Under the pieces are notes generated by a model that had not been told where the DNA came from, did no database searches, and saw nothing but the letters and a program-made list of their open reading frames with translations. Shown here piece by piece: positions 1,917 to 14,968 of a stretch of 14,968 nucleotides of DNA. The stretch's first letter is position 1. The number at the start of each line of letters is the position of its first letter. Origin of the DNA: a virus (taxonomy: Duplodnaviria; Heunggongvirae; Uroviricota; Caudoviricetes). The stretch lies in the IMG/VR virus record IMGVR_UViG_2529292834_000017. The stretch is one strand, 5' to 3'. Both the position numbers and the translations under genes were made by a program.

Positions 1917-2069
1917 TCACTTTTCACGCCCCTCCAAAGCAATGGCGGGGCATTACCTGTTTACCCATCTCCACCAGCATAGATAATTCTATGCCTAGCC
2001 ATTGCTATATCTGTTCGGCTTAGTTCATCTGTAATCACCCCATCTCTAAAAGATACGCCAGCTATCATT

Positions 2070-2109
2070 AGCCATTTTAAGCCATCATGAGCCATCATGA
2101 GCCATTATA
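2070..2109. repeat. Four tandem 10-bp repeats AGCCAT(T/C)(T/A)T(A/G) at exact helical phasing; probable protein-binding array in the int-alpA intergenic region
   Basis: AGCCATTTTA AGCCATCATG AGCCATCATG AGCCATTATA at 2070, 2080, 2090 and 2100, plus an isolated AGCCATT at 1997. Lies in an AT-rich, non-coding 480-bp spacer (1917-2397). Confidence 0.5.
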
Positions 2110-2285
2110 AACCGACTCAACCAATTGAATAATAAAAGATAAAAAGAAATGTAAAAACATGATGAATGACGATGAAAGATATAACTCTTTGATAAAACAA
2201 TGATTTTTTAAACTGGTAACTAATTGAAAATAAAGAAAATAATTATCCCACCTGCATTTGCAATCTTTCAGTGGATCGGTATTTT

Positions 2286-2318
2286 TTCAATAGATTTATA
2301 ATTTCTTTCAATAGATTC
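2286..2318 (+). promoter_or_regulatory. Direct repeat TTCAATAGATT x2 (22 bp apart) overlapping a weak sigma70-like promoter upstream of alpA
   Basis: TTCAATAGATT at 2286-2296 and 2308-2318. Possible -35 TTTCAA (2306-2311) and -10 TAGAAA (2328-2333) with 16-bp spacing, about 65 bp upstream of the alpA ATG. Promoter assignment is inference. Confidence 0.3.
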
Positions 2319-2397
2319 TAGTCTTAATAGAAATACTGTATGGGCAACCACTAAACTTTAAGTAACTTCATGAGCTATCAGAGAGGTTACTAGAGAC

Positions 2398-2616
2398 ATG
2401 ACAGTACACAAGCCAGCATCATCAGCTATCCCAACAACTGGATACATCCGTCGCTTTCGCATGCCGGAATTGCTAGGTGTTTCACTGCCTACTATTGATA
2501 GATGGGTTAAAAATGGCACTCTTCCACGCCCAGTGAAGCTAACAGATAACGTGACTGCGTTTGATGCGGTGGAAATTAATAACTGGCTGGCAGAACGCCG
2601 CGGGAAGGTGGCCTGA
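2398..2616 (+). CDS. alpA: AlpA-family phage transcriptional regulator (HTH, excisionase-like)
   Basis: 72-aa ORF with SD AGAGAGG upstream. Sequence ...YIRRFRMPELLGVSLPTIDRWVKNGTLPRPVKLTDNVTAFDAVEINNWL... matches the AlpA/prophage CP4-57 regulator HTH pattern. Position directly downstream of a P4-type int is typical. Confidence 0.88.
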   Translation: MTVHKPASSAIPTTGYIRRFRMPELLGVSLPTIDRWVKNGTLPRPVKLTDNVTAFDAVEINNWLAERRGKVA

Positions 2617-3047
2617 TGGAAAAGAAAAACCGCCCATTACAGGCGGCTAATTCAGATATTCGCGTATCTGATATTACGCCCCTTACAAAATCCCTTCAAG
2701 CACCAAAGCGCACACCGAAAAAGCATCGTGCCCGAGTCTATATGCTGCGTACTGGTATAGAGGGATGGACAGAAAATGACATTCTTCGCTACTGCCGTCT
2801 GTCTTCTGGTCGTAACTATGCAACAGAGTTAGAACGCCAGCTTGGAATCACTCTGGAGCGTATCGACGAAAAGAATCCTGATGGTATCGGAACACACCTT
2901 CGCTACCGTTTCTCCTGCCGTGGTGATGTTCTGAAAGTGATCACTCATGTTAACCATCTTGCGAACATAAATGATCACAACGGACTTTCTCAGCAGGAAA
3001 TTGCCGACATTCTGAAACTCTACCCGGACGCGTTTAACGCCGCCTAA
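2616..3047 (+). CDS. Hypothetical protein with basic N-terminus, coupled to alpA
   Basis: 143-aa ORF. Its ATG overlaps the alpA stop (TGATG) and is preceded by GGAAGGTGG. N-terminal basic stretch KRTPKKHRARVYMLRTG. No recognisable catalytic motif. Confidence 0.7.
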   Translation: MEKKNRPLQAANSDIRVSDITPLTKSLQAPKRTPKKHRARVYMLRTGIEGWTENDILRYCRLSSGRNYATELERQLGITLERIDEKNPDGIGTHLRYRFSCRGDVLKVITHVNHLANINDHNGLSQQEIADILKLYPDAFNAA

Positions 3048-3059
3048 CGGAGACTAAAA

Positions 3060-3893
3060 ATGAACATCGAAAAAAGCAGATTAATTTCTGAGGCCGCCCC
3101 TCATCTGAACGCCTCTCTGGGCACAATTAACGGTAATGAATTTGCCGCAATTGTCCCGGTTATTTCTGGTCATATAGGCGGGCGTGAAACCAATATTGTT
3201 AGCGCAAAAGCGTTACACAAAGCGTTGGGCGTGGGAAAAGACTTCTCTACATGGATCACTGATCGCATCTCTGAATATGACTTCACCATTGGGCACGATT
3301 ACTCAGTCCATAAAACAATTTCCCCAAATTTGGGGAAAAGCCCGAATGACGCGGCTTACAGCAAGATTAAGCAGTCTGGCAGACCCGGCAAAGACTATCT
3401 GTTAAGTGTCGGAATGGCGAAAGAACTGGCAATGATCGAACGCAATGATCAGGGTCGCGCTATCCGCCGTTATTTCATCCAGTGCGAGAAAGAATTACAG
3501 CGTAGCGTGCCTGAAATCGCCGCCCGCTATCGTCGCCAGCTAAAAGCCCGTATCAGTGCCGCAAACAACTTCAAGCCAATGTGCGATGCGCTGAATATGG
3601 CCCGTGCCGAGATGGGGAAAACGACGCAGCAACACCACTACACAAACGAGAGCAATATGATTTCTCGTATCGTTCTTGGTGGGCTAACTGCTAAGCAGTG
3701 GGCGCGGATAAATGGCTATTCTGGCGAACCTCGCGACCATATGAACGCAGAACAGCTTGAGCACCTCTCATATCTCGAAAGCACCAATATCACGTTAATT
3801 GATATGGGCATGGAATATGAGCAGCGCAAAGGAGAACTCACCCGCCTGTCGCAACGCTGGCTCGCCAAGCGTCTGGAGGCGGTCCATGTTTAA
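3060..3893 (+). CDS. Phage antirepressor-like protein (AntA/AntB-type N-terminal domain)
   Basis: 277-aa ORF with SD ACGGAG upstream. N-terminal segment IVSAKALHKALGVGKDFSTWITDRISEYDFTIGHDY fits the AntA-type pattern (A..LH..LGV...FS.WI..RI..Y.F.EG.D) as I remember it. Product call is moderate; coding call is good. Confidence 0.75.
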   Translation: MNIEKSRLISEAAPHLNASLGTINGNEFAAIVPVISGHIGGRETNIVSAKALHKALGVGKDFSTWITDRISEYDFTIGHDYSVHKTISPNLGKSPNDAAYSKIKQSGRPGKDYLLSVGMAKELAMIERNDQGRAIRRYFIQCEKELQRSVPEIAARYRRQLKARISAANNFKPMCDALNMARAEMGKTTQQHHYTNESNMISRIVLGGLTAKQWARINGYSGEPRDHMNAEQLEHLSYLESTNITLIDMGMEYEQRKGELTRLSQRWLAKRLEAVHV

Positions 3894-4068
3894 GCCGACA
3901 GGAACACCACAACCTCAAAAACGCTACAAAGATGCCCACGGAGCACTCGTTACTGTCGAAAGCGTGTCTCACAACCGAGTGACGTTTTATCGCGACGGGT
4001 ATCAATCGCCATGCGTACAACCGCTGGCACGTTTCATGAAGGAGTTCGCGGAGGTTAACAAATGCTAA
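3886..4068 (+). CDS. Small hypothetical protein (60 aa), coupled to upstream gene
   Basis: ATG at 3886 overlaps the stop of the upstream gene (ATGTTTAA), the same overlap style as the other junctions in this operon. Protein [60 protein letters not shown]. The ORF track extends to 3799 but that would overlap the upstream gene by 95 nt. Confidence 0.5.
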   Translation: MFKPTGTPQPQKRYKDAHGALVTVESVSHNRVTFYRDGYQSPCVQPLARFMKEFAEVNKC

Positions 4069-5129
4069 CCGCCCAGAAGAAGATATTTTCACTGGCTGGT
4101 ATGTCGCCAAAATCCAGCAATATGACAGCAAAGTCAGACATTAATACAGCAGATACAAGCAAAGTTTATCATTTGCTGGTGGTAGGAGCGGATGCCTTAA
4201 CTATGTCAGAAATTACGGTCGATGGTGTTAGCGTTGAGAAGGTCAGCGGCTATGCCAGAGAATTTCTGGTCGTAGATGGCTTTCTCTGCTCGTGTAGTGA
4301 CTCCACAAAAACCTTCGTCCACGCGCGTGACGTTAACGAAATGAGCGCGATGTACTGTGCTTCTGGTTCTTCCAATAGTGAGTTTTCGGAGTCCATAAAA
4401 AAGAGCTTGCCGTTATGCGGCAACACGGTTTATGGTTATAAGGCACCTCATAAAACGGGTGCCGGGATTGGCGTCCTAAAAATTCTGAAGGCGACATATG
4501 ACGCGCCAAGCGTCTTTTTTTATGTCGTAGGTCTGACTCACCCATTTTTTGGGCGTTGGTGTATAATCCAGCGCCTTTGTCAATCAATGGTGGCTCAGGC
4601 GGGGGCTTCTTCGGAAGCGCCGGTATCCTTCAGAGCCGGTTACGCCAACCCTGTCTGGGCTACCACCAGCGAAATTGGCGTTTCCGGTGGTAGCGTAACC
4701 TGCTATCTGAAGGAGGCTGCCACATGCTGGCTACTACCCCTACCCAAAAAACGCAATTTATCTGGATTATCGCCGCAGTTCGCCGCGATTGCCCGACAAT
4801 TACCGCCAAAATTCATCATATTGCTGCCGAGTCTGAACGCGATGCTCGCCGTTCTCTGGTGCGCGATCACGTCTGCTTTTTTGCTGGTCGTATCCGCATG
4901 GAGGTGGCACATGATTAAAACCTACGATGTGCATATGGATCCCCTCGAACGCACAAGCCAGATCATCACACTGACAGAAGTGATTAACGACATTCTGGTG
5001 AGCAACTCTCCCTCACGAGACGAAAGACTGAAGGCGTTACTCGCGATATTGGATCTCGCCGTTCGTGACGTTCATTTCCTGCTGGAAGGTGGCGAAATGC
5101 CAGTAAAAACGGGGGCAACCAATGAATAA
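4062..5129 (+). CDS. Questionable 355-aa ORF, probably not one gene
   Basis: The first ~145 codons (4062 to ~4500) look protein-like. The ORF then reads through a hairpin+U7 terminator (4500-4521), a perfect TATAAT (4562-4567), a UUCG-tetraloop hairpin and a 9-bp hairpin, and the SD/ATG of a better ORF in another frame (4724). Its last 72 codons coincide with the separate gene 4911-5129. An annotation pipeline could still call it as one hypothetical protein. Confidence 0.3.
4381..4403 (+). promoter_or_regulatory. Copy 1 of conserved promoter-proximal motif AGTTTT-N2-GAGTCCATAAAAAA (putative early-operon promoter element)
   Basis: GAGTCCATAAAAAA at 4389-4402 is identical to 10237-10250 (14/14), with matching AGTTTT upstream in both. 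Followed by a perfect palindrome TTGCCG-N5-CGGCAA (4406-4422) and, about 100 nt downstream, a hairpin terminator. Confidence 0.35.
4500..4521 (+). terminator. Intrinsic terminator-like hairpin in the immunity leader (timm-like)
   Basis: GACGC-GCCAA-GCGTC stem-loop followed by TTTTTTT. Immediately preceded by TCTGAAGG (4484-4491), a seqA-like target complementary to 4628-4635. Confidence 0.45.
4530..4567 (+). promoter_or_regulatory. Sigma70-type promoter with perfect -10 TATAAT (4562-4567), weak -35
   Basis: TGTATAAT at 4560-4567. No good -35 hexamer at 17 bp, so activity is uncertain. Confidence 0.35.
4568..4700 (+). ncRNA. Candidate P4 CI / P1 C4-type antisense immunity RNA region (boundaries approximate)
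   Basis: Non-coding leader with a GCTTC-TTCG-GAAGC tetraloop hairpin (4605-4618) and a 9-bp perfect stem GCTACCACC/GGTGGTAGC (4659-4667 with 4686-4694). TCCTTCAGA at 4627-4635 is perfectly complementary to TCTGAAGGA at 4706-4714, which overlaps the SD (AGGAGG 4711-4716) of the Icd-like gene, and 8/8 complementary to 4484-4491. Family membership would need a covariance-model search. Confidence 0.4.
4724..4918 (+). CDS. Icd/Kil-like small protein (cell-division-inhibitor family of P1 icd / P4 kil position)
   Basis: 64-aa ORF with SD AAGGAGG (4706-4712). Motif [10 protein letters not shown]...[25 protein letters not shown] resembles Icd-like proteins as I remember them. Its stop overlaps the next ATG (ATGATTAA). 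Sits immediately downstream of the antisense-RNA-like leader, as in P1 immI and P4 immunity regions. Confidence 0.55.
   Translation: MLATTPTQKTQFIWIIAAVRRDCPTITAKIHHIAAESERDARRSLVRDHVCFFAGRIRMEVAHD
4911..5129 (+). CDS. Small hypothetical protein (72 aa), translationally coupled
   Basis: ATG at 4911 preceded by GGAGGTG; overlaps the upstream stop and the downstream start (ATGAATAA at 5122). Protein [32 protein letters not shown]... Confidence 0.5.
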   Translation: MIKTYDVHMDPLERTSQIITLTEVINDILVSNSPSRDERLKALLAILDLAVRDVHFLLEGGEMPVKTGATNE

Positions 5130-5316
5130 CTCAATTAATACCCCTCGCCTTACGTCCGCACTTCAATTAATCGAGCAAGCAGCGGCTGTCCTGGTTGCTG
5201 TCAGTCTTTCGGCTGAAGAAATGGACGCTGCTGATGTCGTGGATGCGATTAAAGCGTGCTCATCTTTGGTTAACGATGCCCGTGCAGAGCTGGTAATTCT
5301 TGGTGGTGAAAAATGA
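5122..5316 (+). CDS. Small acidic hypothetical protein (64 aa)
   Basis: SD GGGGGC upstream. Start overlaps the previous stop and the stop overlaps the next start (ATGA at 5313). Acidic, helical-looking sequence. Confidence 0.65.
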   Translation: MNNSINTPRLTSALQLIEQAAAVLVAVSLSAEEMDAADVVDAIKACSSLVNDARAELVILGGEK

Positions 5317-5576
5317 ATATCAACTTAATTTATCGTCATCCGTGTGAGCTGGAAATTGAATCATTGCTGGGGCGCGAAGAGCCATATCCAGACACATTCA
5401 CTCCCGCAGATTGCGCGACTGAACGGCTTACCAGAGCGCGCACAGGTCTGGTTCATGTGATGAATGAGATTATTCCCTCGGTGGGAGGGGAACAGGCGAC
5501 AGTAATCAATAGCTGGCTACAAAAAGTTACCTCCCTGATAGATATCAGTTTAATCGATGTGGAGAGTGCGAAATGA
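5313..5576 (+). CDS. Small hypothetical protein (87 aa)
   Basis: SD GGTGGTGA upstream; ATGA overlaps at both ends (5313 and 5573). Confidence 0.65.
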   Translation: MNINLIYRHPCELEIESLLGREEPYPDTFTPADCATERLTRARTGLVHVMNEIIPSVGGEQATVINSWLQKVTSLIDISLIDVESAK

Positions 5577-5794
5577 CCAACATCCAGCTCATTGAAGCGC
5601 AATGTCGCATCGAACAGGTTCAGACTGTTTTAGGGTTCTGGCTTGAAGGGGCCAGCCCAAGCAACAGAGACAAGTTAATGATTGGCGCGGTTATGTCACT
5701 GCTCAATGGCGTACCAGAAGCTATTCAGGAAGCGGACGAATTGTTGGGCAAATATGAGTTACAGAATCATTCAGGCGAGGCGAAACATGAATAA
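5573..5794 (+). CDS. Small hypothetical protein (73 aa)
   Basis: SD GAGAGTG upstream; the stop overlaps the next gene start (ATGAATAA at 5787). Confidence 0.65.
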   Translation: MTNIQLIEAQCRIEQVQTVLGFWLEGASPSNRDKLMIGAVMSLLNGVPEAIQEADELLGKYELQNHSGEAKHE

Positions 5795-6389
5795 TTTCTT
5801 AACTTTCCATGCAGAAGCAACGCCTGGCGGCGTAAACATCATGTACCGCAGCAACGATGGCATGACAGAACGCGTTGAGGCCGTCTCATATATTGATGCC
5901 GTAAATCGTCTGGATGCCGGGGATTATGACGATAAACCAGATGAAGGTATGTCAATACATCTCGCTATTGCCGATGGCGGCAACCAGGGATATTTCGATT
6001 ACACATCACAGCATAACGTCATTATGTGGAGATGGCTGATCGCAACAGTATTCATGCTGGAAATGAGAGAGGAAAACGGCACCGTCAGCATTATTGATGA
6101 CAGTGGCAATCATTCCGTGGTTTCTGTTTATTCCAATGGCATCGTCGCCATGCCGCTGTATCCAGTAGCAGAGCGCCTCGCTATGGCAAACAACATTGAG
6201 GGCGCAATGATCGAGAAATATGGTGTTGATGTCGGAACAAAGAATGCCATCATTTTTTACAGCAACATGTTCGATGTCGAACAGGGAACACTCACTTCGT
6301 TTGGGCGAGAAGTGCTTGCCGATCTTCACAACAGCTTTATTGCCGAACTAAACGAAAACGGCATCCCAGAAGCACCAGTGACGCACTAA
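5787..6389 (+). CDS. Hypothetical protein (200 aa from ATG 5787)
   Basis: ATG at 5787 with GAGGCG upstream, coupled to the previous gene. The ORF track start at 5682 would overlap the upstream gene in another frame. No recognisable motif. Confidence 0.65.
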   Translation: MNNFLTFHAEATPGGVNIMYRSNDGMTERVEAVSYIDAVNRLDAGDYDDKPDEGMSIHLAIADGGNQGYFDYTSQHNVIMWRWLIATVFMLEMREENGTVSIIDDSGNHSVVSVYSNGIVAMPLYPVAERLAMANNIEGAMIEKYGVDVGTKNAIIFYSNMFDVEQGTLTSFGREVLADLHNSFIAELNENGIPEAPVTH

Positions 6390-6401
6390 ACGGGGGCCAG
6401 A

Positions 6402-8753
6402 ATGCGAAACATTGATCTTATCCGTCAGGTTATCAGTGCGTCTGAAAACAACTGGCCTCATGTGCTGGACTGCCTGAACATAAATGTCCCTGACTCTCCG
6501 CGCCGTCATGCTCCCTGCCCTGCATGTGGGGGCAAAGATCGATTCCGGTTCGATGACAACGGGCGCGGTAGCTTCATCTGTAATCAGTGCGGCGCTGGTG
6601 ATGGGCTGGATTTAATTAAACGCGTAAATAACTGCGACACAACAGAGGCGGCGCTTCTTGCCGCTGATGTTCTGGGTATTGATTACCGGACAACGGAAAC
6701 ACCAGAAGCCACCAGCCAGAAACGGGAACAACTGGAAACCGAGCGCCAGCGACGCGAACAGGAGCGCCTGAAAAGGGCAGAGAAGGACGAACAACAAAGA
6801 CGGGATACGTTTTCCCGTCAGTTTGATGACATGCGCAGAAAGGCTGTAAACGGCAAATCTGATTATCTGGTTGCGAAAGGGGTAGGTGATTTTACATTCC
6901 CTGTGTTGCCCGATGGATCTCTGTTGCTGGCGCTGGTGGATAAATCCGGCGCAGTCACAGCAGCACAGACTATTACCTCACATGGTGAAAAAAGACTCCT
7001 GACAGGTTCAGCAAAGCGAGGGGCATATCACGCCATAAACGCACAGAAACGACCTCACAGCATCATAATTGCTGAGGGGGTGGCTACCGCCCTGTCGTGC
7101 CATTTAATTCGCCCTGACGCAATGACAGTGGCAGCAATCGACGCTGGCAACCTGTTGCCAGTAGCGGAAGTCATGCGCAGAACATATCCACAGGCACAAA
7201 TCATCATTGCCGCAGATAACGATCACCAGCAAGGAAACTCCGAAAGTGGAGGGATCAACACGGGGAAAGATGCCGCAGAGAGGGCCGCTATTTCCGTAGC
7301 TGGCTGGGTGTCTCTGCCACCGACTGACTATAAAGCCGACTGGAACGACTATCACCAACAACACGGGCTGGCGGCAGCCACAGCAGCATTTAAAGATTCG
7401 ATGTACCAGCCACGGGGGAAAGGGGCGCAGGTGAAAAATCACAAACAGTCAGTCGGGGCGCTGAATGAGATCAGTTCTGGCGAGGTGTTAAGCGATGATG
7501 AAATTGCTGTCCTCGAAGAAATCAACCGGACGTTTACGCATGTCACCATCGGCGGGAAACACAAGGTGGTGTCGCTAAAGCCTTCTCAAACCGGCGGTGT
7601 ATCGCACGTTTTCGAGGATTTATCACAATTTCAGCATTATTTTCATCATAAACCGAGAGTCGCCAGAAAGCTGGCGGGATCGGCGTGGCTGTCATGGAGT
7701 GGGAAGAACTACAAGCCAGGAGGCGTAGGATTTTATCCAGTACCAGACAAATGCCCTGACGATGTTTTTAATCTGTATGAGGGGCTGGCACTGGAACCAA
7801 TTGAAGGAGATTGCACGGTATACCTTAATCACCTGTTGCAGGTTGTCTGTGCCGGTAATGAAGAGGCATACCAATATCTTATCCAGTGGATGGCGCACAT
7901 TATCCAAAAGCCTGATGAAAAACCGTCCGTGGCAATCGTGATGAAATCTGTCCCGGGCACAGGGAAAGGCACAACGGTTAAACCGCTGCTGCAAATACTG
8001 GGGCAGTACGCCGCCCACATTAACGGGGCGGGACATATTTCAGGGCGCTTCAATTCAATACTTGCTAACAAGCTACTGGTATTTGCTGACGAAGTGACGA
8101 TCCACAAGCCGTCTGAAGCTGACAGACTTAAAGCGATTATTAGCGAACCGACGTTTAACCTTGAGCGCAAGGGAATTGATGCTGAACCAATGCCGAATTT
8201 TGCCCGGTTGATATTTGCCAGTAACAGCACACAGGTATTACAGGCAGGGATAAGAGAGCGCCGCTATCTCGTGCTTGAGCCATCTCCTGAAAAAGCACAG
8301 AGCCGGGAGTATTTTGATCGGCTGTACAGTTGGCTTAATGATGGCGGTGCCGCAAAGTTGCTTTGGCATCTTAAAGGGGTGGATCTCTCAGGTTTTGACC
8401 CTCAACGAGCGCCACAGACCGATGCCTTACGTGAAGAAATCTTGCTGGGGCTGTCTGGCGTTGAATTGTTTCTTTATGGCGAGCTAATCAATGAACCTCC
8501 GTTTAATGGCGAAGTCCGTTTGTTTGCAAAGGATATGGTTAGTCGATTTGTAGCGTGGTCGCTTGAGCGTGGGGAAAAGCTTAAAGAACCAGCTGCCAGA
8601 TCACTACTGGGTAAATCACTTGCACAAATGGGGCTGGTGAAGCATGGAAGACCAGACCGAGGGAATGGCGTGTTCTACGAACTACCAGAGGTCGGAGTTC
8701 TACAGGCTGCGTTTGCCCGTCTGATCGGTATGGGGGGGTATGATGTTTTTTAA
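6402..8753 (+). CDS. P4 alpha-type bifunctional DNA primase / SF3-like helicase (zinc ribbon + Toprim + D5/P4-family NTPase)
   Basis: 783-aa ORF with SD GGGGGC. N-terminal zinc ribbon CPACGGKDRFRFDDNGRGSFICNQCGAGDGLDLI (CxxC...CxxC), near-diagnostic of P4-alpha-like primases. Toprim-like IIIAEGVATAL and AADNDHQ (DxD). P-loop-like SVPGTGKGTT, Walker B-like LLVFADEV, sensor-like LIFASNS. Size matches P4 alpha (777 aa). Confidence 0.93.
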   Translation: MRNIDLIRQVISASENNWPHVLDCLNINVPDSPRRHAPCPACGGKDRFRFDDNGRGSFICNQCGAGDGLDLIKRVNNCDTTEAALLAADVLGIDYRTTETPEATSQKREQLETERQRREQERLKRAEKDEQQRRDTFSRQFDDMRRKAVNGKSDYLVAKGVGDFTFPVLPDGSLLLALVDKSGAVTAAQTITSHGEKRLLTGSAKRGAYHAINAQKRPHSIIIAEGVATALSCHLIRPDAMTVAAIDAGNLLPVAEVMRRTYPQAQIIIAADNDHQQGNSESGGINTGKDAAERAAISVAGWVSLPPTDYKADWNDYHQQHGLAAATAAFKDSMYQPRGKGAQVKNHKQSVGALNEISSGEVLSDDEIAVLEEINRTFTHVTIGGKHKVVSLKPSQTGGVSHVFEDLSQFQHYFHHKPRVARKLAGSAWLSWSGKNYKPGGVGFYPVPDKCPDDVFNLYEGLALEPIEGDCTVYLNHLLQVVCAGNEEAYQYLIQWMAHIIQKPDEKPSVAIVMKSVPGTGKGTTVKPLLQILGQYAAHINGAGHISGRFNSILANKLLVFADEVTIHKPSEADRLKAIISEPTFNLERKGIDAEPMPNFARLIFASNSTQVLQAGIRERRYLVLEPSPEKAQSREYFDRLYSWLNDGGAAKLLWHLKGVDLSGFDPQRAPQTDALREEILLGLSGVELFLYGELINEPPFNGEVRLFAKDMVSRFVAWSLERGEKLKEPAARSLLGKSLAQMGLVKHGRPDRGNGVFYELPEVGVLQAAFARLIGMGGYDVF

Positions 8754-8782
8754 TATAGTCTTTTTACAAGAAGATCGTTTTT

Positions 8783-8795
8783 ACCTGTACCACCT
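8783..8795 (-). repeat. Single iteron-like copy (reverse complement AGGTGGTACAGGT) 30 bp after the primase stop
   Basis: ACCTGTACCACCT on the + strand matches 13/14 of the GGTGGTACAGGTGG repeat clustered at 9809-9911. Confidence 0.45.
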
Positions 8796-8844
8796 ATACC
8801 ATTAACAAACGCATTTCTTCTGGCTGGCTGAGAGGGAACAACCA

Positions 8845-9075
8845 ATGATGAGCACACCATTTTACAAAGTGCGCCAGTTAGCTTCTTCCTCTGGCTGGCA
8901 GCTACGGTTTGAGGGGCGTTCAGACTGGCTACCCATTGCGGCATGGGCGAATGTTGAAATGTGTATTGACGGCGATACCGTTGAAATCATTATTCCCTGC
9001 GTGGCAAGTCGGGACGGCTGTATAGAGCCAACAGATATGGCAGCAGAAATCAGAGAGGTAAAACATGAACAATAA
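8845..9075 (+). CDS. Hypothetical protein (76 aa)
   Basis: SD GAGAGGGAA before the ATG at 8845. Overlaps the next gene by 11 nt. No recognisable motif. Confidence 0.55.
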   Translation: MMSTPFYKVRQLASSSGWQLRFEGRSDWLPIAAWANVEMCIDGDTVEIIIPCVASRDGCIEPTDMAAEIREVKHEQ

Positions 9076-9802
9076 CTATTGCATACTGCAGGGAATGACC
9101 AGAACGGAGCGCGAAGAATTAAAAAGTTTCGCTACACAGTGCGGGAATGCTGGCGACATCCAAAGTCTGGAACGCACTTTAATTATGATTGCGCACTGGA
9201 TGCGCCAGGGGCAAAGAGTTTCATTTACTGAATATGCCAGCCAGTGGACAGAGGCACAGCGCGAACGGAGCGACGGTAATCACTCAACACCCGAAATGGC
9301 GAAGCAATGGCCTTTCAGTGGTAAACGCTGTATCAGTCCCGGTGGTTCAGATTATTACCCTGCTGGTGTGGGAGATGAGCCATGTTGTGACGAGACTGAA
9401 ATCCGCCACGCAGTGACAGTAATTACCGCTGAATACCCACAATTTAACCTTGACGGACTGGCGCTCCACAACCGGAATGCGGACTGGGAAAACCCGCTTG
9501 ATAACCCGTCATTTATCGTATCGGCGAAAAGCTGCCTGAGATGGATCAGAGACAACGGGATGAGTAATGCCCAGATTGAGAGCTTCCCGCAGGATAACCC
9601 CACATCTGACACGTTGAAGCATGAAGTGGAGCGATATAACCAGATAAACCACCAGCACAGTGATCACCCGCACTATATCCCCAACGGAGCATTTATTGCG
9701 GCGATGGTGGCAAGCGGCTACAAGGTTAAGCCAGCGGGAAGAATGAACGCATTTTTCAATATTTCAAAAAAGGGATTATGTGCTGCTATGGGTAAAAATT
9801 AA
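9065..9802 (+). CDS. Hypothetical protein (245 aa), Cys/His-containing
   Basis: SD GAGAGG before the ATG at 9065. Contains CCDETEIRH and HQHSDHPHY segments. No recognisable family. Confidence 0.65.
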   Translation: MNNNYCILQGMTRTEREELKSFATQCGNAGDIQSLERTLIMIAHWMRQGQRVSFTEYASQWTEAQRERSDGNHSTPEMAKQWPFSGKRCISPGGSDYYPAGVGDEPCCDETEIRHAVTVITAEYPQFNLDGLALHNRNADWENPLDNPSFIVSAKSCLRWIRDNGMSNAQIESFPQDNPTSDTLKHEVERYNQINHQHSDHPHYIPNGAFIAAMVASGYKVKPAGRMNAFFNISKKGLCAAMGKN

Positions 9803-9808
9803 ATAAAT

Positions 9809-9911
9809 GGTACAGGTCTGTACAGGTGGGGAGAGGTCATTTTTACCCACCTGTACCACCTGCAGGCCGCGCCACACAAGGGTTTGTGACATGGTGGTAC
9901 AGGTGGTACAG
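9809..9911. repeat. Iteron cluster: at least 3 copies of GGTGGTACAGGTGG in both orientations, including an 11-bp perfect inverted repeat; candidate replication origin / crr-like site
   Basis: GGTACAGGT at 9809-9817; GTACAGGTGGG at 9820-9830 is perfectly inverted to CCCACCTGTAC at 9846-9856 (15-nt spacer); GGTGGTACAGGTGGTACAG at 9893-9911. Non-coding position downstream of the primase-helicase. The origin role is inference by analogy to P4 alpha binding iterons in ori/crr. Confidence 0.5.
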
Positions 9912-10228
9912 CAAAAACAGCGATTTTCTTTATAAGGTATGTTTTGCTCATCTGGCAGACGGAGGTATTCGCTGCGGTTTGGCACATAGCCCAGAACAGC
10001 AAAGAGTTTTACGAGACTTTTGTAAAATCCAGTGTACAAGGGCGTGACGTTTTTGAAGGTGAGCACTACGAAATTTTCGTAGTTCAAAAAATAGCCTCTG
10101 AGATGTTGTTATGCCTGTTCAGCAAACCATCCGCATAGCTGATCGCGAATCAAATTACCAATGGAGCCAGAAGCAAGGGCAGAACTGGAAAGCGCCTGCC
10201 GTGAAGAGTAATGCGACTCCATAAATAT

Positions 10229-10251
10229 AGTTTTTAGAGTCCATAAAAAAA
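10229..10251 (+). promoter_or_regulatory. Copy 2 of conserved motif AGTTTT-N2-GAGTCCATAAAAAA (putative promoter of the cargo operon)
   Basis: 14/14 identity of 10237-10250 with 4389-4402, plus matching upstream AGTTTT. A degenerate third copy GACTCCATAAA is at 10215-10225. Followed within 30 nt by a strong hairpin terminator. Confidence 0.35.
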
Positions 10252-10276
10252 CTGTCAAAACCTGACATACAGAACG

Positions 10277-10309
10277 ATGCCACCAGCTACTGAACGGTGG
10301 CATTTTTTT
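10277..10309 (+). terminator. Rho-independent terminator / attenuator in the leader of the cargo operon
   Basis: 8-bp stem ATGCCACC / GGTGGCAT (10277-10284 with 10296-10303), 11-nt loop, then a run of 6 T. The ORF-track ATG at 10277 lies inside the stem, so the 100-aa ORF 10277-10579 is an over-extension. Confidence 0.55.
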
Positions 10310-10405
10310 GTGCTATTTGTTTCATATTTTGCAATCACAATGATGAATGTTGCGTTTTATGAAACTATAATGACTGTTGTTTTATACAGTTCTAAGGGGG
10401 GCGTT

Positions 10406-10579
10406 ATGGCTATTTCAGTAAAGCCAGTATTGATAAGTGAGAAGCAAATGGAAGCGATAAAGAAAATTCAGGAGGAGCAGCGTAAAAAATCAGAGGTAGG
10501 AGTTGCGCCAACGATCCACGAAATTGCTCGGGGATTAATGGATAAGGCGCTGGCTTACACTTTAACTGGACGTGGGTAA
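10406..10579 (+). CDS. Small hypothetical protein (57 aa), first gene of the cargo operon
   Basis: Strong SD AAGGGGGG 6 nt before the ATG at 10406. Protein MAISVKPVLISEKQMEAIKKIQEEQRKKSEVGVAPTIHEIARGLMDKALAYTLTGRG, charged and helical-looking. Possible small regulator or partner protein; inference only. Confidence 0.6.
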   Translation: MAISVKPVLISEKQMEAIKKIQEEQRKKSEVGVAPTIHEIARGLMDKALAYTLTGRG

Positions 10580-10583
10580 ATTT

Positions 10584-11927
10584 ATGGCTACGTGGCAACA
10601 GGGTATTAATTCTGGTGGTTTTCTGGCTGGCATCGGTGCGCAAAATGAGAATGCGCCAAAGGCAAGCGACATTAACGCAACGCTTGGTCTGATCCGCGAA
10701 AACAATGAACTGGCTCGCTCAGGTGCAAATAACGTTGCTCTGACAGGTCTTCGTGGTCTGGCTGGAGTTGCTGACATTTATAAGCAGCAGCAACAGCAGG
10801 AACGTAAAGCGGCATTCCAGAAAGGTTATGCAGATGCTTATGCGTCCGGTGACAGGGAGCAGATGCGTAATCTTATTACAGCATTCCCAGAAGAGTTTGA
10901 GGAAGTCCGTAAAGGGATGAGTTATGTCGATGATGCTCAAAGGGATGATTATGGCAATCTGGCGCTCAAAGCACAGGTAGCCTCATCGCTTGGTCAGGGC
11001 GCATTTGGCAGGTTCATGATGGATAATGAGCAGGAGATGCGTCGTTTAGGTATCCCTCCAGAAACTATTGCTGAAATGCAGGTTAATGACCCGCAGGGCT
11101 TCCAGCATTTCGCAGGTAATCTGGCGCTGTTTTCTCTCGGTCATGAGAAGTATTTCGATATCAAAGATCAAATGGAAGGTCGTCGACTTGAGCAAGGGCG
11201 ACTGGATGAAAGTATGCGTCAGGCTGACATGGAGAACGCGAGAGGATGGGCAAATATCCAGAACGCTCAACTAGACAGGGCTCAGCGAGCACAAATTCAC
11301 TCAGATGAGATGGGATTGAAGCTAATGGAGCTGGGGCAAAAAGGTAAGCCGTCAGCAGACTTAATTAAGGGATTAAATTCTGACATTACCAATTTTGGCA
11401 AAAATTATAACTCTGTCAGAGCGGCGGCAAACTCTCTGCAAGCCCTTAGCAAGGTAAATACTGGCGCTGCCCAACTTGGGATTATCTTCAACTACATGAA
11501 ATCTCTTGACCCGCAGTCAGTCGTTCGTGAAGGCGAACAGGTTCAGGTAATGCGGTCTGATGGCATATGGGGACAAATCAAAGGATACATAGACCAGCTT
11601 AATGCTGGAAACGGCCTGTCGCAGGAGGCAAAGGATAACATTGTTAACGCCGCAAAAATCAACGCCAATGCTATGGGGCAGCAGTTTAACCAGCAGGTTG
11701 ACGAGTATCTCGATACATATGGAGAAACTATTCCTCAGGGGCTAAGAAAAAGCCTTGAAAGAAGGAAAGCGAAGCTATTTGACGATGTTTCCGGGCAGCC
11801 TACATCACAGGCTGGCACTGGACAGGCAAAAGCGGCAACCGGAGGAATATCAGAAGGCGCAACGGCAACCAACCCTAAAACTGGTCAGAAAATCATTTAC
11901 AGGAACGGAAAATGGCAGCAAATGTAA
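10584..11927 (+). CDS. Hypothetical coiled-coil-rich protein (~448 aa; 451 aa if GTG 10572 is used) with Gly-rich N-terminus
   Basis: Long ORF with coding-like composition. N-terminal Gly/Ala/Asn-rich segment (GINSGGFLAGIGAQNENAPK), then a Q/E/R-rich probable coiled coil (QADMENARGWANIQNAQLDRAQRAQIH). No Walker, nuclease or other catalytic motif seen. Start ambiguous between GTG 10572 (overlapping the upstream stop) and ATG 10584. Confidence 0.8.
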   Translation: MATWQQGINSGGFLAGIGAQNENAPKASDINATLGLIRENNELARSGANNVALTGLRGLAGVADIYKQQQQQERKAAFQKGYADAYASGDREQMRNLITAFPEEFEEVRKGMSYVDDAQRDDYGNLALKAQVASSLGQGAFGRFMMDNEQEMRRLGIPPETIAEMQVNDPQGFQHFAGNLALFSLGHEKYFDIKDQMEGRRLEQGRLDESMRQADMENARGWANIQNAQLDRAQRAQIHSDEMGLKLMELGQKGKPSADLIKGLNSDITNFGKNYNSVRAAANSLQALSKVNTGAAQLGIIFNYMKSLDPQSVVREGEQVQVMRSDGIWGQIKGYIDQLNAGNGLSQEAKDNIVNAAKINANAMGQQFNQQVDEYLDTYGETIPQGLRKSLERRKAKLFDDVSGQPTSQAGTGQAKAATGGISEGATATNPKTGQKIIYRNGKWQQM

Positions 11928-14029
11928 TCTTACCGGAAGGTTTTGTGCTCGATGAACAACCTGATAACTCACAGTTTCCTGATAGTTCACAGCTTCCTGA
12001 TGGTTTTGTGCTTGATGCCCAACCAGAACAGCAGCAATCACCTTTGGTTTCACCAGAGGAAAATTCCAGACAGGAAAATGTTGTTAATAATGCTAACGGT
12101 TTCGACCGTTTTATGTATGGCGTTCTCAGTGGATTGATGGATGTTGGTAAAGGTGTTGGCCTGTTTCAGGATATGACACCAGAAGAGCAAGCCGCAATTC
12201 AGTCTCTACAGCAGAAGTTAGCGGCAAAACCATCAACCGCACAAGATGTTGGTGAGTTCGTTGGACAAGCAGCGCCATTTGTTAGTGGTGGTGGGATTAT
12301 TTCTCAGGTTCCCAAAGGGGCGGCAAGACTGGCTGCCGCCGCAGGGCTTGGTGCTGGAGAAGGGGCTATTGTAGCCAATGGAACAAATAGCGATGTTGCT
12401 TCCGGCGCTGCTATTGGCGCTGTGGCTGGCCCTGTAGCCGAACTTGCTGGCCCTGCAATTAATAAAATAGCTGGGAAATTAACCAAGAAGAATGTTTCTT
12501 CGATTCCAGATATTGAGGGGATTACTCCTGCCGAAGAGAAAATTCGTAAGTTATCTGCACAAGGCAACCCAAATCTTGCCTCTTCGCTTGAAGGGCTAGA
12601 TCTAAAACCTCAGAAAGAAATTGTTGAGGCTGCAAATAGGCTTCATGTTGATTCAGTTCTTCCTTCTCATTTATCAGGAAATGAGCAATACCAAGCTGTA
12701 GAGCAAGCCCTAAAGTCACGGACAGGATCAGCGTTAAAAGCTCAAGAAGATAAAGCAATAAGCGAATTAGCCTCTAGTGCTGGCAAGATAATCGATGATG
12801 TTGCTGGTGCGCCAGATGCGTTAGCTATGAGCGAAAAATATATTTATCAGATAAATAGTAGAATGGAAGCACTAAAAAACCGTAGTGATCAGTTATATAA
12901 ACGTGTTGATTCCGCTCTATCACCAAGAACAAAAGTCGAAGCAAATAACACAAGCACTATGCTGGAAAAAATCGCTGATGATTTAGGAGGGTGGGATAAT
13001 CTTGACCCAATAGAAAAGCGAGTTTTTACAGCAATAAACCCCGGCCCAGATAGCATCCTAACGTATGCAAATTTAAACAGGCAAAGGCGTTTAGTTGGTG
13101 ATGCCCTAAATAAAAAGCAGGGGCCATACAAAGATGCTGATAAAGAAGCGCTATCAAGACTATATGGAGCTTTAGCTGAAGACCAAAAATCTGTCTTATC
13201 CAATACTGGATACTTGCGAGATTTCGAAGTCGCACAACGCCTTGTAGCTATGAGAAAAAACTTAGAAAGGCAAATGGTAAATCTTCGCGGGAAAACACTT
13301 AATGGGGATATAGCGTATAAAGTAACGAATTCTCTTCAATCTATGGCAAAAGGTGATGCGAGAGGGTTTCGTGAGATTATGCAAAATACTCCATCAAGAA
13401 CATTGCGAAGGGAGCTAGTAGGAACAGCATTAAGAGATATGCTTTCCTCTGGGAAGCGTGGGGCCGACTTTAATCCATCTGGCTTCGCAGATTGGTGGCA
13501 AAACTTGCAACACAGTGGACAGCTAAAGACTTTGGCTGAACATTTGCCAAAAGAAACAATGAGCGGACTATATGATGTATACAAAGTTGCCAGAGCAATA
13601 AAAAATGCTAAAGCGCATGAAATATCTACTGGTAAGCTGAATGAGTTTGTAAACAGATTTAATCGGGTAACAGCTCCATACGAACTAGCAGCAAAACACA
13701 TTCAAAAAATAGGCACGATGGTAGGCGCTCATTTTGGATCGCTTGGAGCCATTGCTGGGGCTGATATTGGAGCAAGATTGGCGAGTAAAGCTCGATTAGC
13801 TGGTGGAGCAGGGGCGGCTGATGCTGCGGATAAATTAATTGCCTCGCCAGCCTTCCAGAGCGCAGTAAAAAATCTACACGGAAAAGCGCCTGGGCACATT
13901 GTTGATTCACGTATCAGGCGCTCCCCTCAATGGAAGAGTTTTTTTAACTCTCTTCCTGAACAGGAAAAACGGACCATCGCCAGACTGGGCATCATTACTT
14001 GGCTATCTAATGATCCAGATAATGACTAG
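11912..14029 (+). CDS. Hypothetical 705-aa protein with N-terminal tandem repeat and Gly/Ala-rich amphipathic segments
   Basis: ATG at 11912 with AGGAA 6 nt upstream; overlaps the end of the upstream gene by 16 nt. N-terminus has a tandem repeat LPEGFVLDEQP / LPDGFVLDAQP. Gly/Ala-rich stretches at residues ~125-180 (AARLAAAAGLGAGEGAIVANG...AIGAVAGPVAELAGPAINKIAGKL) and near the C-terminus (GSLGAIAGADIGARLASKARLAGGAGAADAADKLIASPA). No enzymatic motif recognised. GC content drops sharply after ~12500. Confidence 0.85.
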   Translation: MAANVILPEGFVLDEQPDNSQFPDSSQLPDGFVLDAQPEQQQSPLVSPEENSRQENVVNNANGFDRFMYGVLSGLMDVGKGVGLFQDMTPEEQAAIQSLQQKLAAKPSTAQDVGEFVGQAAPFVSGGGIISQVPKGAARLAAAAGLGAGEGAIVANGTNSDVASGAAIGAVAGPVAELAGPAINKIAGKLTKKNVSSIPDIEGITPAEEKIRKLSAQGNPNLASSLEGLDLKPQKEIVEAANRLHVDSVLPSHLSGNEQYQAVEQALKSRTGSALKAQEDKAISELASSAGKIIDDVAGAPDALAMSEKYIYQINSRMEALKNRSDQLYKRVDSALSPRTKVEANNTSTMLEKIADDLGGWDNLDPIEKRVFTAINPGPDSILTYANLNRQRRLVGDALNKKQGPYKDADKEALSRLYGALAEDQKSVLSNTGYLRDFEVAQRLVAMRKNLERQMVNLRGKTLNGDIAYKVTNSLQSMAKGDARGFREIMQNTPSRTLRRELVGTALRDMLSSGKRGADFNPSGFADWWQNLQHSGQLKTLAEHLPKETMSGLYDVYKVARAIKNAKAHEISTGKLNEFVNRFNRVTAPYELAAKHIQKIGTMVGAHFGSLGAIAGADIGARLASKARLAGGAGAADAADKLIASPAFQSAVKNLHGKAPGHIVDSRIRRSPQWKSFFNSLPEQEKRTIARLGIITWLSNDPDND

Positions 14030-14048
14030 TGAATGGCCACGGATGGCC

Positions 14049-14474
14049 TCAATCTTTATTCTTTGAAATAGAGTCATTGATCTTTTCGAAACACCAATGA
14101 AATCCACAAAAGAGAGCTACACCAATATAACAATACAAAACTATCAACCACCTTTCAGTGTCCGAAGGGTAAAAAACATCAATTACATAAGCAACACCAA
14201 TTGGTATTAATGCTAGTAATAACATCGACACAGGACGTACAAACTTCTGAACTATATCAATTTTATAGAACCACAAGGCGGTATGTTTAATGATATAAGT
14301 AAAGATGGCTGCGCCAATAATGGCAAAAAACACCATCGATAAAGTCGGGTATAACTTTGCGACAATTAAACCCAACAAAATAATTATAACTGCCTGCCCC
14401 CTCACACCAACCCTCCCTTTAGCTTTGTTTAGAATGGCAATCATCATATATCCAAGACATGGCATTTGGTACAT
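14049..14474 (-). CDS. Small integral membrane protein (141 aa, ~4 predicted TM helices), low GC
   Basis: Minus-strand ORF convergent with the 705-aa gene. Hydrophobic stretches VIIILLGLIVAKLYPTLSMVFFAIIGAAIFTYII, VSMLLLALIPIGVAYVIDVF and LIVLYCYIGVALFCGF. Very AT-rich codon usage. No clear SD at any of the candidate starts (14474, 14465, 14447). Confidence 0.65.
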   Translation of the reverse strand: MYQMPCLGYMMIAILNKAKGRVGVRGQAVIIILLGLIVAKLYPTLSMVFFAIIGAAIFTYIIKHTALWFYKIDIVQKFVRPVSMLLLALIPIGVAYVIDVFYPSDTERWLIVLYCYIGVALFCGFHWCFEKINDSISKNKD

Positions 14475-14598
14475 AGCTTGGGTCGGGATTTCAAATCCGC
14501 TCCCCGTTGATGGGGCCGTTACAGTACGCGCATATCCGCTTTATGTGAAACAGGAAGATTTTTCTGATATCACTGCCACAGCAAAACACCAATTTCGT

Positions 14599-14668
14599 GA
14601 CCAGTACGCGCGCGAGGTGTATCAGTTGCAAAATTTTTTGCAGCTGTGTCCGACCAGTACGCACGCGA
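14599..14668. repeat. Two 17-bp direct repeats GACCAGTACGC(G/A)CGCGA flanking a 24-bp AT-centred palindrome
   Basis: GACCAGTACGCGCGCGA at 14599-14615 and GACCAGTACGCACGCGA at 14652-14668 (16/17). Between them CAGTTGCAAAA-TT-TTTTGCAGCTG (14623-14646), 11-bp arms with 1 mismatch. A partial third copy CAGTACGCGCA is at 14522-14532. Confidence 0.5.
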
Positions 14669-14721
14669 TGGCGGGGAGCACCATAAAACTGTTCTCTACA
14701 TAAGACAGAGTGGTGGTGATG

Positions 14722-14968
<247 letters not shown>

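What the first reader, a model, noticed from the sequence alone, without database searches (positions are those of the whole stretch)
14049..14474. Low-GC small membrane protein convergent on the cargo operon
A ~141-aa polytopic membrane protein encoded on the opposite strand immediately after the 705-aa gene, with much lower GC than its surroundings. Small membrane proteins in this position in mobile elements are often superinfection-exclusion or abortive-infection factors. It could also be a functional partner of the Gly/Ala-rich proteins.
Basis: inference. Interest (0 to 1): 0.5.

Follow-up and report, generated by a model that had tools for sequence, protein, structure and literature searches.

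The report
Membrane protein in the phage sieA slot
A real, AT-rich gene for a small four-helix inner-membrane protein lies exactly where phage P22 keeps its superinfection-exclusion gene sieA, so it probably blocks DNA injection by P22-like phages, although it is unrelated in sequence to SieA and untested.

Summary
It is on the minus strand, has 35% GC against 47% for the window, has four hydrophobic helices, and its stop lies 19 nt from the stop of the 705-aa gene.

The coding start is almost certainly the GTG at 14405, giving 118 aa. It is not the ATG at 14474 (141 aa). All relatives start at that aligned codon, each behind a strong ribosome-binding site.

The two "Gly/Ala-rich" upstream genes are homologues of phage P22 ejection-protein genes 20 and 16. 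In P22-like prophages, the slot convergent on gene 16 (the "ant moron") holds sieA. [quoted passage not shown]

This protein belongs to a tiny family: 13 representatives among 1.84 billion proteins. Members occur in Escherichia, Salmonella and Serratia. In every locus I examined the member sits in that slot, and never together with sieA.

It shows no sequence or profile similarity to SieA types A or B, lacks the SieA motif, and has no informative fold match.

Best reading (about 0.45): a non-homologous functional analogue of SieA. Here it is carried by a primase-type integrative island that has captured the gene 20/16 module.

Function is inferred from position, not shown. Interest is moderate.

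The parts
14049..14405 (-). Probable true CDS: a 118-aa inner-membrane protein with four transmembrane helices and a GTG start. In 118-aa numbering the helices are about 5-19, 22-39, 59-79 and 86-106. The predicted topology is N-in/C-in.
   Evidence: Searches give the hydrophobic segments, helices and charge bias. Searches place the start codon by alignment with relatives and their Shine-Dalgarno sequences.
14411..14417 (-). Shine-Dalgarno sequence GGGAGGG, 5 nt upstream of the GTG start.
   Evidence: Read directly from the sequence. Equivalent GGAGG-type sites precede the aligned start codon in 8 of 8 loci.
14406..14474 (-). The 5' extension of the 141-codon ORF, probably not translated. It is part of the conserved flank.
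   Evidence: The same 'MMIAILNKAKGRVGV' reading precedes unrelated cassettes, P0015 and the secreted P0016. Megablast break points fall at 14401/14402. Relatives such as P0008 have no such extension.
14406..14731 (-). Conserved 5' flank, presumed regulatory. It is shared by at least 535 complete E. coli genomes upstream of different cassettes. It holds two copies of a 17-nt motif, GACCAGTACGCGCGCGA, at 14599-14615 and 14652-14668.
   Evidence: No convincing sigma-70 promoter was found.
14030..14048 (.). The 19-nt gap between the two convergent stop codons. It holds a 5-bp GGCCA/TGGCC hairpin that is not significant.
   Evidence: z = -0.94. P22 has a 22-nt gap between gene 16 and sieA.
11912..14029 (+). 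Homologue of P22 gene 16, the inner-membrane ejection / DNA-transfer protein. It is of the Sf101/E212/Kapi1 sequence type.
   Evidence: phrog_6704 1.4e-174 and phrog_770 'DNA transfer protein' 1.2e-50. tblastn gives 41-63% identity to Lederbergvirus gene 16 homologues.
10572..11927 (+). Homologue of P22 gene 20, the periplasmic conduit ejection protein.
   Evidence: Pfam Inj_translocase 2.5e-73. phrog_917 4.2e-132. 54% identity to P22 gp20 over the N-terminal 212 aa.
14733..14968 (.). End of an IS100kyp (IS21-family) insertion sequence. It interrupts the island about 327 nt upstream of the start codon.
   Evidence: The uninterrupted island sequence is in L001 and L013.

Best explanation
The gene is a 'moron' from the variable region between genes 16 and 9 of P22-like phages (the 'ant moron', which is the sieA slot). 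It encodes a 118-aa inner-membrane protein with four transmembrane helices and an N-in/C-in topology.

Most likely it is made constitutively at a low level from the resident element and acts as a superinfection-exclusion protein. At the inner membrane it would prevent the gp20/gp16 ejection-protein conduit of an incoming P22-like podophage from assembling or opening. Phage DNA would then fail to reach the cytoplasm. That is the mechanism shown for SieA, reached by an unrelated protein.

In this window the gene travels, together with genes 20 and 16, inside a primase-type integrative island rather than a complete prophage.

Shown:
- the gene is real, and its start and membrane character are established;
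- its neighbours are identified;
- the slot is conserved, and the family is narrow and diverse.

Inferred:
- inner-membrane location and topology;
- expression from the resident element;
- the exclusion activity and its target.
For: 1. The neighbours are P22 genes 20 and 16.
2. P22 sieA and the type B sieA of prophage HS1 lie convergent on gene 16 in the same way. [quoted passage not shown]
3. Family members in all loci examined sit convergent on a gene 16 homologue: L005-L008, L010, L011, L014-L017, L021 and L025-L027. In L014 the member lies between gene 16 and the tailspike. In L011 it lies downstream of Arc/Mnt-type genes. In L026 it lies in a 43.5-kb viral contig with the full virion gene set.
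4. None of 22 loci with a family member carries the SieA motif, and the two sieA loci lack the family.
5. There are four transmembrane helices with a positive-inside bias.
6. The gene has 35% GC, its own strong Shine-Dalgarno sequence and a mosaic junction exactly at the start codon. These are typical of a moron.
7. The family has only 13 representatives among 1.84 billion proteins. Identity to the window protein is 23-48% in the eight-member alignment A2, behind a conserved N-terminal helix. Rapid divergence of this kind is expected for a protein in a phage-phage arms race.
8. Members sit next to at least three gp16 sequence types. SieA likewise works against divergent E-proteins.
9. The same arm of the island carries an Abi-family gene in some strains.
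Against: - There is no sequence or profile similarity to SieA. BLASTP gives E = 1.7. hhalign gives probability 0.4% against type A and 2.4% against type B.
- The conserved SieA motif FxRYPxEAxxFNK is absent.
- PADLOC and PHROGs give no hit. There is no informative structural neighbour.
- The ant moron is known to hold many unrelated genes of unknown function (PMC2629481). The same slot here also holds secreted proteins, so position alone does not prove function.
- No promoter was identified. In this window an IS100 sits 327 nt upstream and may affect expression.
- No isolated phage in the phage collection carries the family.
- There are no experimental data.
Confidence: 0.45

Rival explanations
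1. It is an envelope 'lysogenic-conversion' moron with a function unrelated to phage exclusion. Examples would be a change in membrane physiology, stress tolerance, colonisation or virulence of the host. It would simply ride in a high-flux slot.
For: The ant moron holds many unrelated genes of unknown function and turns over rapidly (PMC2629481). Alternative cassettes in the same slot are secreted proteins. The island also carries a PerC-family regulator and occurs in pathogenic lineages such as ETEC H10407. No defence model matches.
Against: The family is confined to the slot next to gene 16 in P22-like prophages and derived islands. A general host-fitness gene would be expected in other contexts too. 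Divergence is extreme for such a small protein.
Confidence: 0.25
2. It is an abortive-infection or holin-like effector. The small membrane protein would depolarise or permeabilise the inner membrane when triggered by infection, killing the cell before phage release.
For: It is a small polytopic membrane protein on a mobile element. An Abi-family gene lies in the same island arm in some strains. One relative gives a very weak hit to a holin family (P0030, E = 0.063).
Against: No sensor or partner gene is conserved with it. It lies outside any lysis cassette. The holin hit is far below threshold and is not shared by other members. PADLOC finds nothing. The exact protein is carried on at least 1000 contigs.
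Confidence: 0.1
3. It is a partner or immunity factor for the adjacent ejection proteins. It would protect the producing cell's inner membrane from its own membrane-active gp16/gp20, or help to handle them, rather than block incoming phages.
For: It is tightly linked to genes 20/16 in every locus. The island keeps intact genes 20/16 together with this gene at several integration sites.
Against: Many P22-like phages have no such gene and still make E-proteins (Sf101, E212 and Kapi1). Family subtypes do not track gp16 type strictly: the L026 member has a window-like C-terminal half but sits beside a P22-type gp16. The gene is transcribed convergently, so it is not part of the late operon.
Confidence: 0.1
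4. It is a truncated BI-1/YccA-type 'FtsH-binding integral membrane protein', as some IMG records label it.
For: There is a weak Pfam Bax1-I hit: E = 4.4e-5 and 23.8 bits for the 141-aa form. IMG uses this label for cluster members.
Against: The score is below the gathering threshold of 34.1 bits and falls to 18.8 bits for the 118-aa form. None of seven relatives hits the family, even at E <= 1. The protein has 4 helices and 118 aa. BI-1/YccA proteins have about 7 helices and 200 or more aa (general knowledge). The match covers hydrophobic helices only.
Confidence: 0.03
5. It is not a functional gene, but a chance or decaying ORF.
For: No promoter was found. An IS lies upstream in this window. 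The gene 20 homologue is a pseudogene in H10407.
Against: An ORF of this length is rare by chance. The start codon and Shine-Dalgarno sequence are conserved across 23-48% identical relatives. The four-helix pattern is conserved. The protein is identical in islands whose flank differs by 14 substitutions.
Confidence: 0.03

Closest known systems
SieA superinfection-exclusion protein of phage P22 and P22-like prophages (types A, B and C; Leavitt et al. 2024, PMC10883804)
   Same: - The genomic slot is the same: convergent on gene 16, a 19-22 nt gap, inside the ant moron.
- Both are small, polytopic, predicted inner-membrane proteins.
- Both are carried by P22-like elements of Enterobacteriaceae.
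- Both families are highly divergent.
- The two are mutually exclusive in the loci examined.
   Different: - There is no detectable sequence or profile similarity.
- It lacks the conserved cytoplasmic motif FxRYPxEAxxFNK.
- It is shorter: 118 aa against 162-212 aa.
- It has four closely packed helices and no long cytoplasmic loop or tail.
- The activity is untested.
Other genes of the 'ant moron' of P22-like phages (Villafane et al. 2008, PMC2629481)
   Same: It lies between gene 16 and the tailspike side of the late operon. It has a deviant composition. It is apparently expressed independently. It is swapped as a cassette between related elements.
   Different: Most ant-moron genes are regulators (mnt, arc, ant) or unique soluble or secreted proteins. 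This one defines a small recurrent membrane-protein family. Here it has left the phage and sits in an integrative island.
HK97 gp15 and similar prophage membrane proteins that block DNA entry (as discussed in PMC10883804)
   Same: These too are prophage moron-encoded small membrane proteins thought to block genome entry at the inner membrane.
   Different: I did not compare their sequences with this protein. They act on long-tailed phages through tape-measure or tail-tube proteins and sit in different genomic slots. This comparison rests on the paper's discussion and was not tested here.

Membership tests
SieA (P22 superinfection exclusion A; Pfam PF26849 in the precomputed tables) | Sequence homology to SieA type A, B or C | tested here: not met
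   BLASTP against P22 SieA gives E = 1.7. hhalign of the family profile against 9 type A sequences gives probability 0.4%, and against HS1 type B 2.4%. Type C was not tested. The local Pfam copy lacks PF26849, because P22 SieA itself gives no hit.
SieA | Conserved motif FxRYPxEAxxFNK near the C-terminus | tested here: not met
   The motif is present in P22 and HS1 SieA. It is absent from the window protein and from all 22 loci with family members.
SieA | Gene lies between the homologues of genes 16 and 9 of a P22-like prophage, convergent on gene 16 | tested here: met
   In the window the gene is convergent on the gene 16 homologue with a 19-nt gap. Relatives lie in complete P22-like prophages. 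In the window itself the tailspike side is replaced by island DNA.
SieA | Integral inner-membrane protein with 3-4 transmembrane helices | tested here: inconclusive
   Four helices are predicted. Localisation is not testable in silico.
SieA | Blocks DNA injection by P22-like phages; escape mutations fall in gp16/gp20 | not testable with these tools
   This needs plating, K+ efflux and escape-mutant experiments as in PMC10883804.
Ant-moron cassette of P22-like phages | Variable, non-morphogenetic gene inserted between gene 16 and the tailspike gene, differing between related elements | tested here: met
   At least 535 genomes share the flank, and 87 carry this cassette. Break points fall at the start codon. 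Alternative cassettes are seen. The definition is in PMC2629481.
BI-1 / YccA (Pfam Bax1-I PF01027; IMG label 'FtsH-binding integral membrane protein') | Score above the Pfam gathering threshold, shared by relatives | tested here: not met
   The scores are 23.8 and 18.8 bits against a threshold of 34.1. None of 7 relatives hits the family. Four helices are predicted.
CBO0543 family (NCBIfam NF041644) | Score above the curated cut-off | tested here: not met
   23.9 bits against a cut-off of 35.
GtrA-like flippase (small four-helix protein of P22-like phages) | Pfam GtrA match and an adjacent gtrB/gtrC | tested here: not met
   No GtrA hit appears, even at E <= 1, for the protein or its relatives. 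No gtrB or gtrC lies nearby.
Known anti-phage defence proteins (PADLOC-DB 2.0) | Match to any defence-system model | tested here: not met
   No hit at E <= 0.01.

The most novel reading that the evidence does not exclude
The membrane protein and the adjacent genes 20/16 may form a mobile 'injection-conduit plus exclusion' module. A primase-type, satellite-like integrative island would have captured it from P22-like phages. The island would load helper virions with its own ejection proteins. It would also protect its host, and so itself, with a new non-SieA exclusion protein. That would make it a phage satellite that brings its own DNA-delivery proteins, a feature I did not find described in the paper searches.
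Probability: 0.15. Interest if true: 0.75.

Novelty: new variant of a known kind. Interest (0 to 1): 0.4.

Why it matters
If the protein excludes P22-like phages, it would be a second, unrelated solution to the task that SieA performs. It could be used to probe how the gp16/gp20 conduit crosses the inner membrane, which is still an open mechanistic question (PMC10883804).

It would also show that the slot next to gene 16 is a dedicated site for envelope-acting anti-injection genes.

The carrier is unusual as well. It is a widespread E. coli island with a P4-type primase, and it keeps intact ejection-protein genes. This hints at an undescribed kind of phage-satellite interplay.

If the protein does not exclude phages, it is one more uncharacterised prophage moron.

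Tried and rejected
- **Family libraries.** Pfam, NCBIfam, PHROGs and PADLOC gave only sub-threshold hydrophobic matches (Bax1-I, CBO0543). Relatives do not share them.
- **Phage genomes.** tblastn of the protein and of relative P0030 against 50,697 phage genomes found nothing.
- **SieA comparisons.** Pairwise and profile comparisons with SieA types A and B were negative.
- **RNA families.** Rfam on 9700-14968 gave only chance-level hits.
- **Promoters and terminators.** The scans found no promoter on the minus strand upstream of the start and no terminator. The intergenic hairpin is not significant.
- **Species representatives.** A scan of GTDB species-representative genomes with the family profile gave no confirmed locus.
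- **Overlapping ORF.** The plus-strand ORF at 14305-14703 was rejected as a gene. It is frameshifted in L019, and most changes in L013 are non-synonymous.
- **Coupling to gp16 type.** I considered strict co-variation of family subtype with gp16 type and rejected it, because of L026.
- **Literature.** Searches found no description of this protein or of islands carrying ejection-protein genes.

Full report
**1. The observation**

The window has an ATG-to-stop ORF of 141 codons at 14049-14474 on the minus strand. It lies in the most AT-rich stretch of the right half of the window. Its GC is 35-36%, against 47% for the whole window, 43.9% for the 705-aa gene and 46.6% for the sequence just upstream of it.

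A stop-free run this long is unusual even for AT-rich DNA. One of 5000 shuffles reached 141 codons, and 26 of 5000 reached 118. The stop codon lies 19 nt from the stop of the convergent 705-aa gene.

A Kyte-Doolittle scan shows four hydrophobic segments. An AlphaFold2 model built on eight family members gives four long helices with mean pLDDT 73.

Lys and Arg concentrate in the loop between helices 2 and 3 (four K/R) and in the C-terminal tail. The loop between helices 3 and 4 is acidic. By the positive-inside rule this gives an N-in/C-in topology with very little exposed to the periplasm. This is an inference, since no dedicated topology predictor was available.

**2. The start codon**

The 141-aa reading is probably too long.

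- Every relative recovered begins M/V-x-G/A-Q-x-I/V-I-I/M-I/V-L/F-L-G/S-L-I/V-V-x-K-L-Y at the codon that aligns with the GTG at 14405.
- In 8 of 8 loci a GGAGG-type Shine-Dalgarno sequence lies 5-8 nt upstream. In the window it is GGGAGGG at 14411-14417.
- The peptide read from the upstream extension ('MMIAILNKAKGRVGV') also precedes quite different proteins. These are P0015, a divergent four-helix protein, and P0016, which carries a classical signal peptide starting at the same GTG.
- Megablast alignments of other E. coli genomes to this region break at 14401/14402.

The CDS is therefore 14049-14405, giving 118 aa. Positions 14406-14731 are a conserved non-coding 5' flank. RefSeq's 131-aa call from 14444 is probably also too long.

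**3. The surroundings**

The window matches an island of E. coli that is present in ETEC H10407. Its left part encodes, in order:

- a tyrosine integrase;
- an AlpA-type regulator;
- an AntA/AntB antirepressor-like protein;
- an Ash-family protein;
- a primase with Zn-ribbon, Toprim and DUF5906 domains.

The two 'Gly/Ala-rich' genes are homologues of the ejection-protein (E-protein) genes of phage P22.

- The 451-aa protein matches Pfam Inj_translocase at 2.5e-73 and is 54% identical to the N-terminal 212 residues of P22 gp20.
- The 705-aa protein matches phrog_6704 over its full length (1.4e-174) and phrog_770 'DNA transfer protein'. It is 41-63% identical to the gene 16 homologues of the Lederbergviruses Sf101, E212 and Kapi1, where it follows genes 14, 7 and 20.

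The last 236 nt of the window are the end of an IS100kyp (IS21-family) element. It is inserted about 327 nt upstream of the start codon. Uninterrupted copies of the island continue with a 66-aa gene, a 147-aa gene and a PerC-family regulator.

**4. The slot**

In P22, sieA is the gene convergent on gene 16, with a 22-nt gap. It is followed by orf59a, mnt, arc, ant and the tailspike gene. In the E. coli HS1 prophage the type B sieA lies in the same place.

Villafane et al. call this region the 'ant moron' and describe it as the fastest-changing part of the late operon (PMC2629481).

Leavitt et al. established the following about SieA (PMC10883804):

- It is an inner-membrane protein.
- It alone blocks DNA injection by P22-like phages.
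- Escape mutations fall in the C-terminal parts of gp16 and gp20.

**5. The family**

A word-indexed search of 5.8 billion proteins gave 16 hits, mostly near-identical E. coli sequences. A full HMMER profile search of 1.84 billion cluster representatives found 13 proteins at E <= 0.001. Named members come from E. coli, E. albertii, Salmonella enterica and Serratia fonticola. The exact protein is on at least 1000 contigs.

Members are 115-147 aa, and all have four hydrophobic helices. Identity to the window protein is 23-48% in the eight-member alignment. The N-terminal helix ending in K-L-Y-P is almost invariant, and the rest is highly variable.

In every locus I could read, the member is convergent on a gene 16 homologue.

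- L005-L008 and L010 hold the P0015 type. L005 also carries portal, scaffold, coat, gp4, gp10, gp26, gp14 and gp7. L009 is cut short in its convergent neighbour, which has no family call.
- L011 holds P0008, downstream of four Arc/Mnt-type genes.
- In L014 the member lies between gene 16 and a Head_binding tailspike, next to the integrase.
- L015-L017 show the same convergent arrangement.
- L026 is a 43.5-kb IMG/VR contig with the full P22-like virion set.

None of 22 loci with a member contains the SieA motif, and the two sieA loci lack the family. Members sit beside at least three gp16 sequence types. Subtype and gp16 type are not strictly coupled. The L026 protein has a C-terminal half like the window protein's, but its neighbour is 51% identical to P22 gp16.

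**6. Is it SieA?**

No, by every test available.

- BLASTP against P22 SieA gives E = 1.7.
- Profile-profile comparison of the family with nine type A SieA proteins gives probability 0.4%.
- The same comparison with HS1 type B gives 2.4%.
- The motif is absent.
- Type C was not tested.

The local Pfam copy lacks the SieA model, so the Pfam scan is not a test.

Other candidate families also fail.

- Bax1-I scores 23.8 bits against a gathering threshold of 34.1, and none of seven relatives hits it. This weak hit explains the IMG label 'FtsH-binding integral membrane protein'.
- CBO0543 scores below its cut-off.
- No GtrA hit appears, even at E <= 1, and no gtrB is nearby.
- PADLOC and PHROGs give nothing.
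- Structure searches return only generic helical hairpins.

**7. Distribution and mosaicism in E. coli**

Of 5426 complete genomes, 87 carry the gene with its flank. A total of 535 carry some part of the queried stretch (window 14040-14731). In those that lack this gene, the match is the upstream flank, joined to another cassette. Seventy-nine carry at least 80% of the whole island as in the window.

The block 57-aa ORF / gene 20 / gene 16 / membrane gene / 147-aa gene / PerC recurs in islands with different integrases and primases at two chromosomal sites. The 66-aa gene lies between the membrane gene and the 147-aa gene in most copies, and an Abi-family gene takes its place in L020.

- One site is next to the thrW tRNA-Thr gene (shown for L028). 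H10407 (L001) carries the island next to the pao genes.
- The other site is between yicC and dinD (L013, L019, L020).

The block is therefore part of the mobile island and not a chance remnant.

Variants exist.

- Some carry genes 14-7-20-16 (L022).
- Some carry a P22-type gene 16 with the P0015-type membrane protein (L021).
- Some carry a ~200-aa secreted protein in the slot (L028).
- Some carry an Abi-family gene beside the slot (L020, L021).

The coding sequence is identical between the window and strain 702/18, although the flank at 14505-14713 differs at 14 positions.

**8. Mechanism**

The best-supported reading is a functional analogue of SieA. A small inner-membrane protein made by the resident element would stop the gp20/gp16 conduit of an incoming P22-like phage from assembling or opening at the inner membrane.

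The position, the membrane character, the restriction to P22-like contexts, the exclusivity with sieA and the fast divergence all fit. None of these proves it. The slot also holds unrelated envelope proteins, and no experiment exists. I put this reading at 0.45.

Rivals, with my estimates:

- an unrelated lysogenic-conversion envelope function (0.25);
- an abortive-infection or holin-like effector (0.10);
- a partner or immunity factor for the element's own E-proteins (0.10);
- a BI-1/YccA-like protein (0.03);
- a non-functional ORF (0.03).

Expression is unresolved. No sigma-70-like promoter was found in the flank. The flank holds repeated 17-nt motifs, which could be operator sites. The IS100 in this window may cut the gene off from upstream signals.

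**9. Novelty and verdict**

The slot and the kind of function are known. The protein family is uncharacterised and unrelated to SieA, and I found no paper that mentions it. I rate it a new variant of a known kind, with moderate interest (0.4).

The more surprising point is the carrier, which lies outside the finding. It is a common primase-type island that keeps intact P22 ejection-protein genes. I did not find this described.

Noticed in passing
window 1-14731 (genes 20/16 at 10572-14029); L001, L013, L019-L022, L028, L029: The carrier is an island of about 16 kb, not a prophage. It runs integrase, AlpA, AntA/B, Ash, P4-type primase, and it keeps intact P22 ejection-protein genes 20 and 16. 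Some variants carry genes 14-7-20-16. It occurs at two or more chromosomal sites with different integrases and primases. 79 of 5426 complete E. coli genomes carry at least 80% of it, and many more carry related versions. I found no description of it in the literature searches.
   Followed up: partly
window 14733-14968: This is the end of an IS100kyp (IS21-family) element, inserted about 327 nt upstream of the membrane gene's start. It splits the conserved flank. It separates the gene from the 66-aa and 147-aa genes and from the PerC regulator found in intact islands.
   Followed up: partly
window 14599-14615 and 14652-14668; L001 16688-18362: A 17-nt motif, GACCAGTACGCGCGCGA, occurs twice in the window's flank, against 0.03 expected by chance. 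It occurs four times in the right arm of the intact island, including once beyond the PerC gene. It may be an operator or other protein-binding site.
   Followed up: partly
window 14401-14405 (junction at the start codon): At least three unrelated or very divergent cassettes share the same flank, Shine-Dalgarno sequence and start-codon position in different E. coli genomes. They are the 118-aa four-helix protein, the 116-aa four-helix protein and a ~190-aa secreted protein. The mosaic break therefore falls exactly at the start of translation.
   Followed up: partly
window 10406-10579 (+): A 57-aa ORF lies directly upstream of gene 20 and is conserved in most islands examined (WP_001018522). 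One variant, L022, has a related 53-aa protein (WP_001018524) upstream of gene 14 instead. It has no family hit. By eye its sequence looks like a ribbon-helix-helix regulator.
   Followed up: no
window 14305-14703 (+): This 132-aa ORF overlaps the membrane gene and its flank on the other strand, and some pipelines call it. It is frameshifted in strain Nord122, and most of its changes in strain 702/18 are non-synonymous. It is probably not a gene.
   Followed up: yes
L001 12685-14028 (ETEC H10407) against window 10572-11927: The gene 20 homologue is annotated as a pseudogene with an internal stop in H10407. It is intact in the window and in other strains.
   Followed up: no
L020 13188-14150; L021 16377-17339: In some islands an Abi-family gene replaces the 66-aa gene next to the membrane gene. 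This suggests that this arm of the island collects anti-phage cargo.
   Followed up: no
window 9803-10405: About 600 nt between the 245-aa ORF and the 57-aa ORF have no annotated gene in RefSeq copies. They contain only short overlapping ORFs on both strands. I did not examine this stretch.
   Followed up: no
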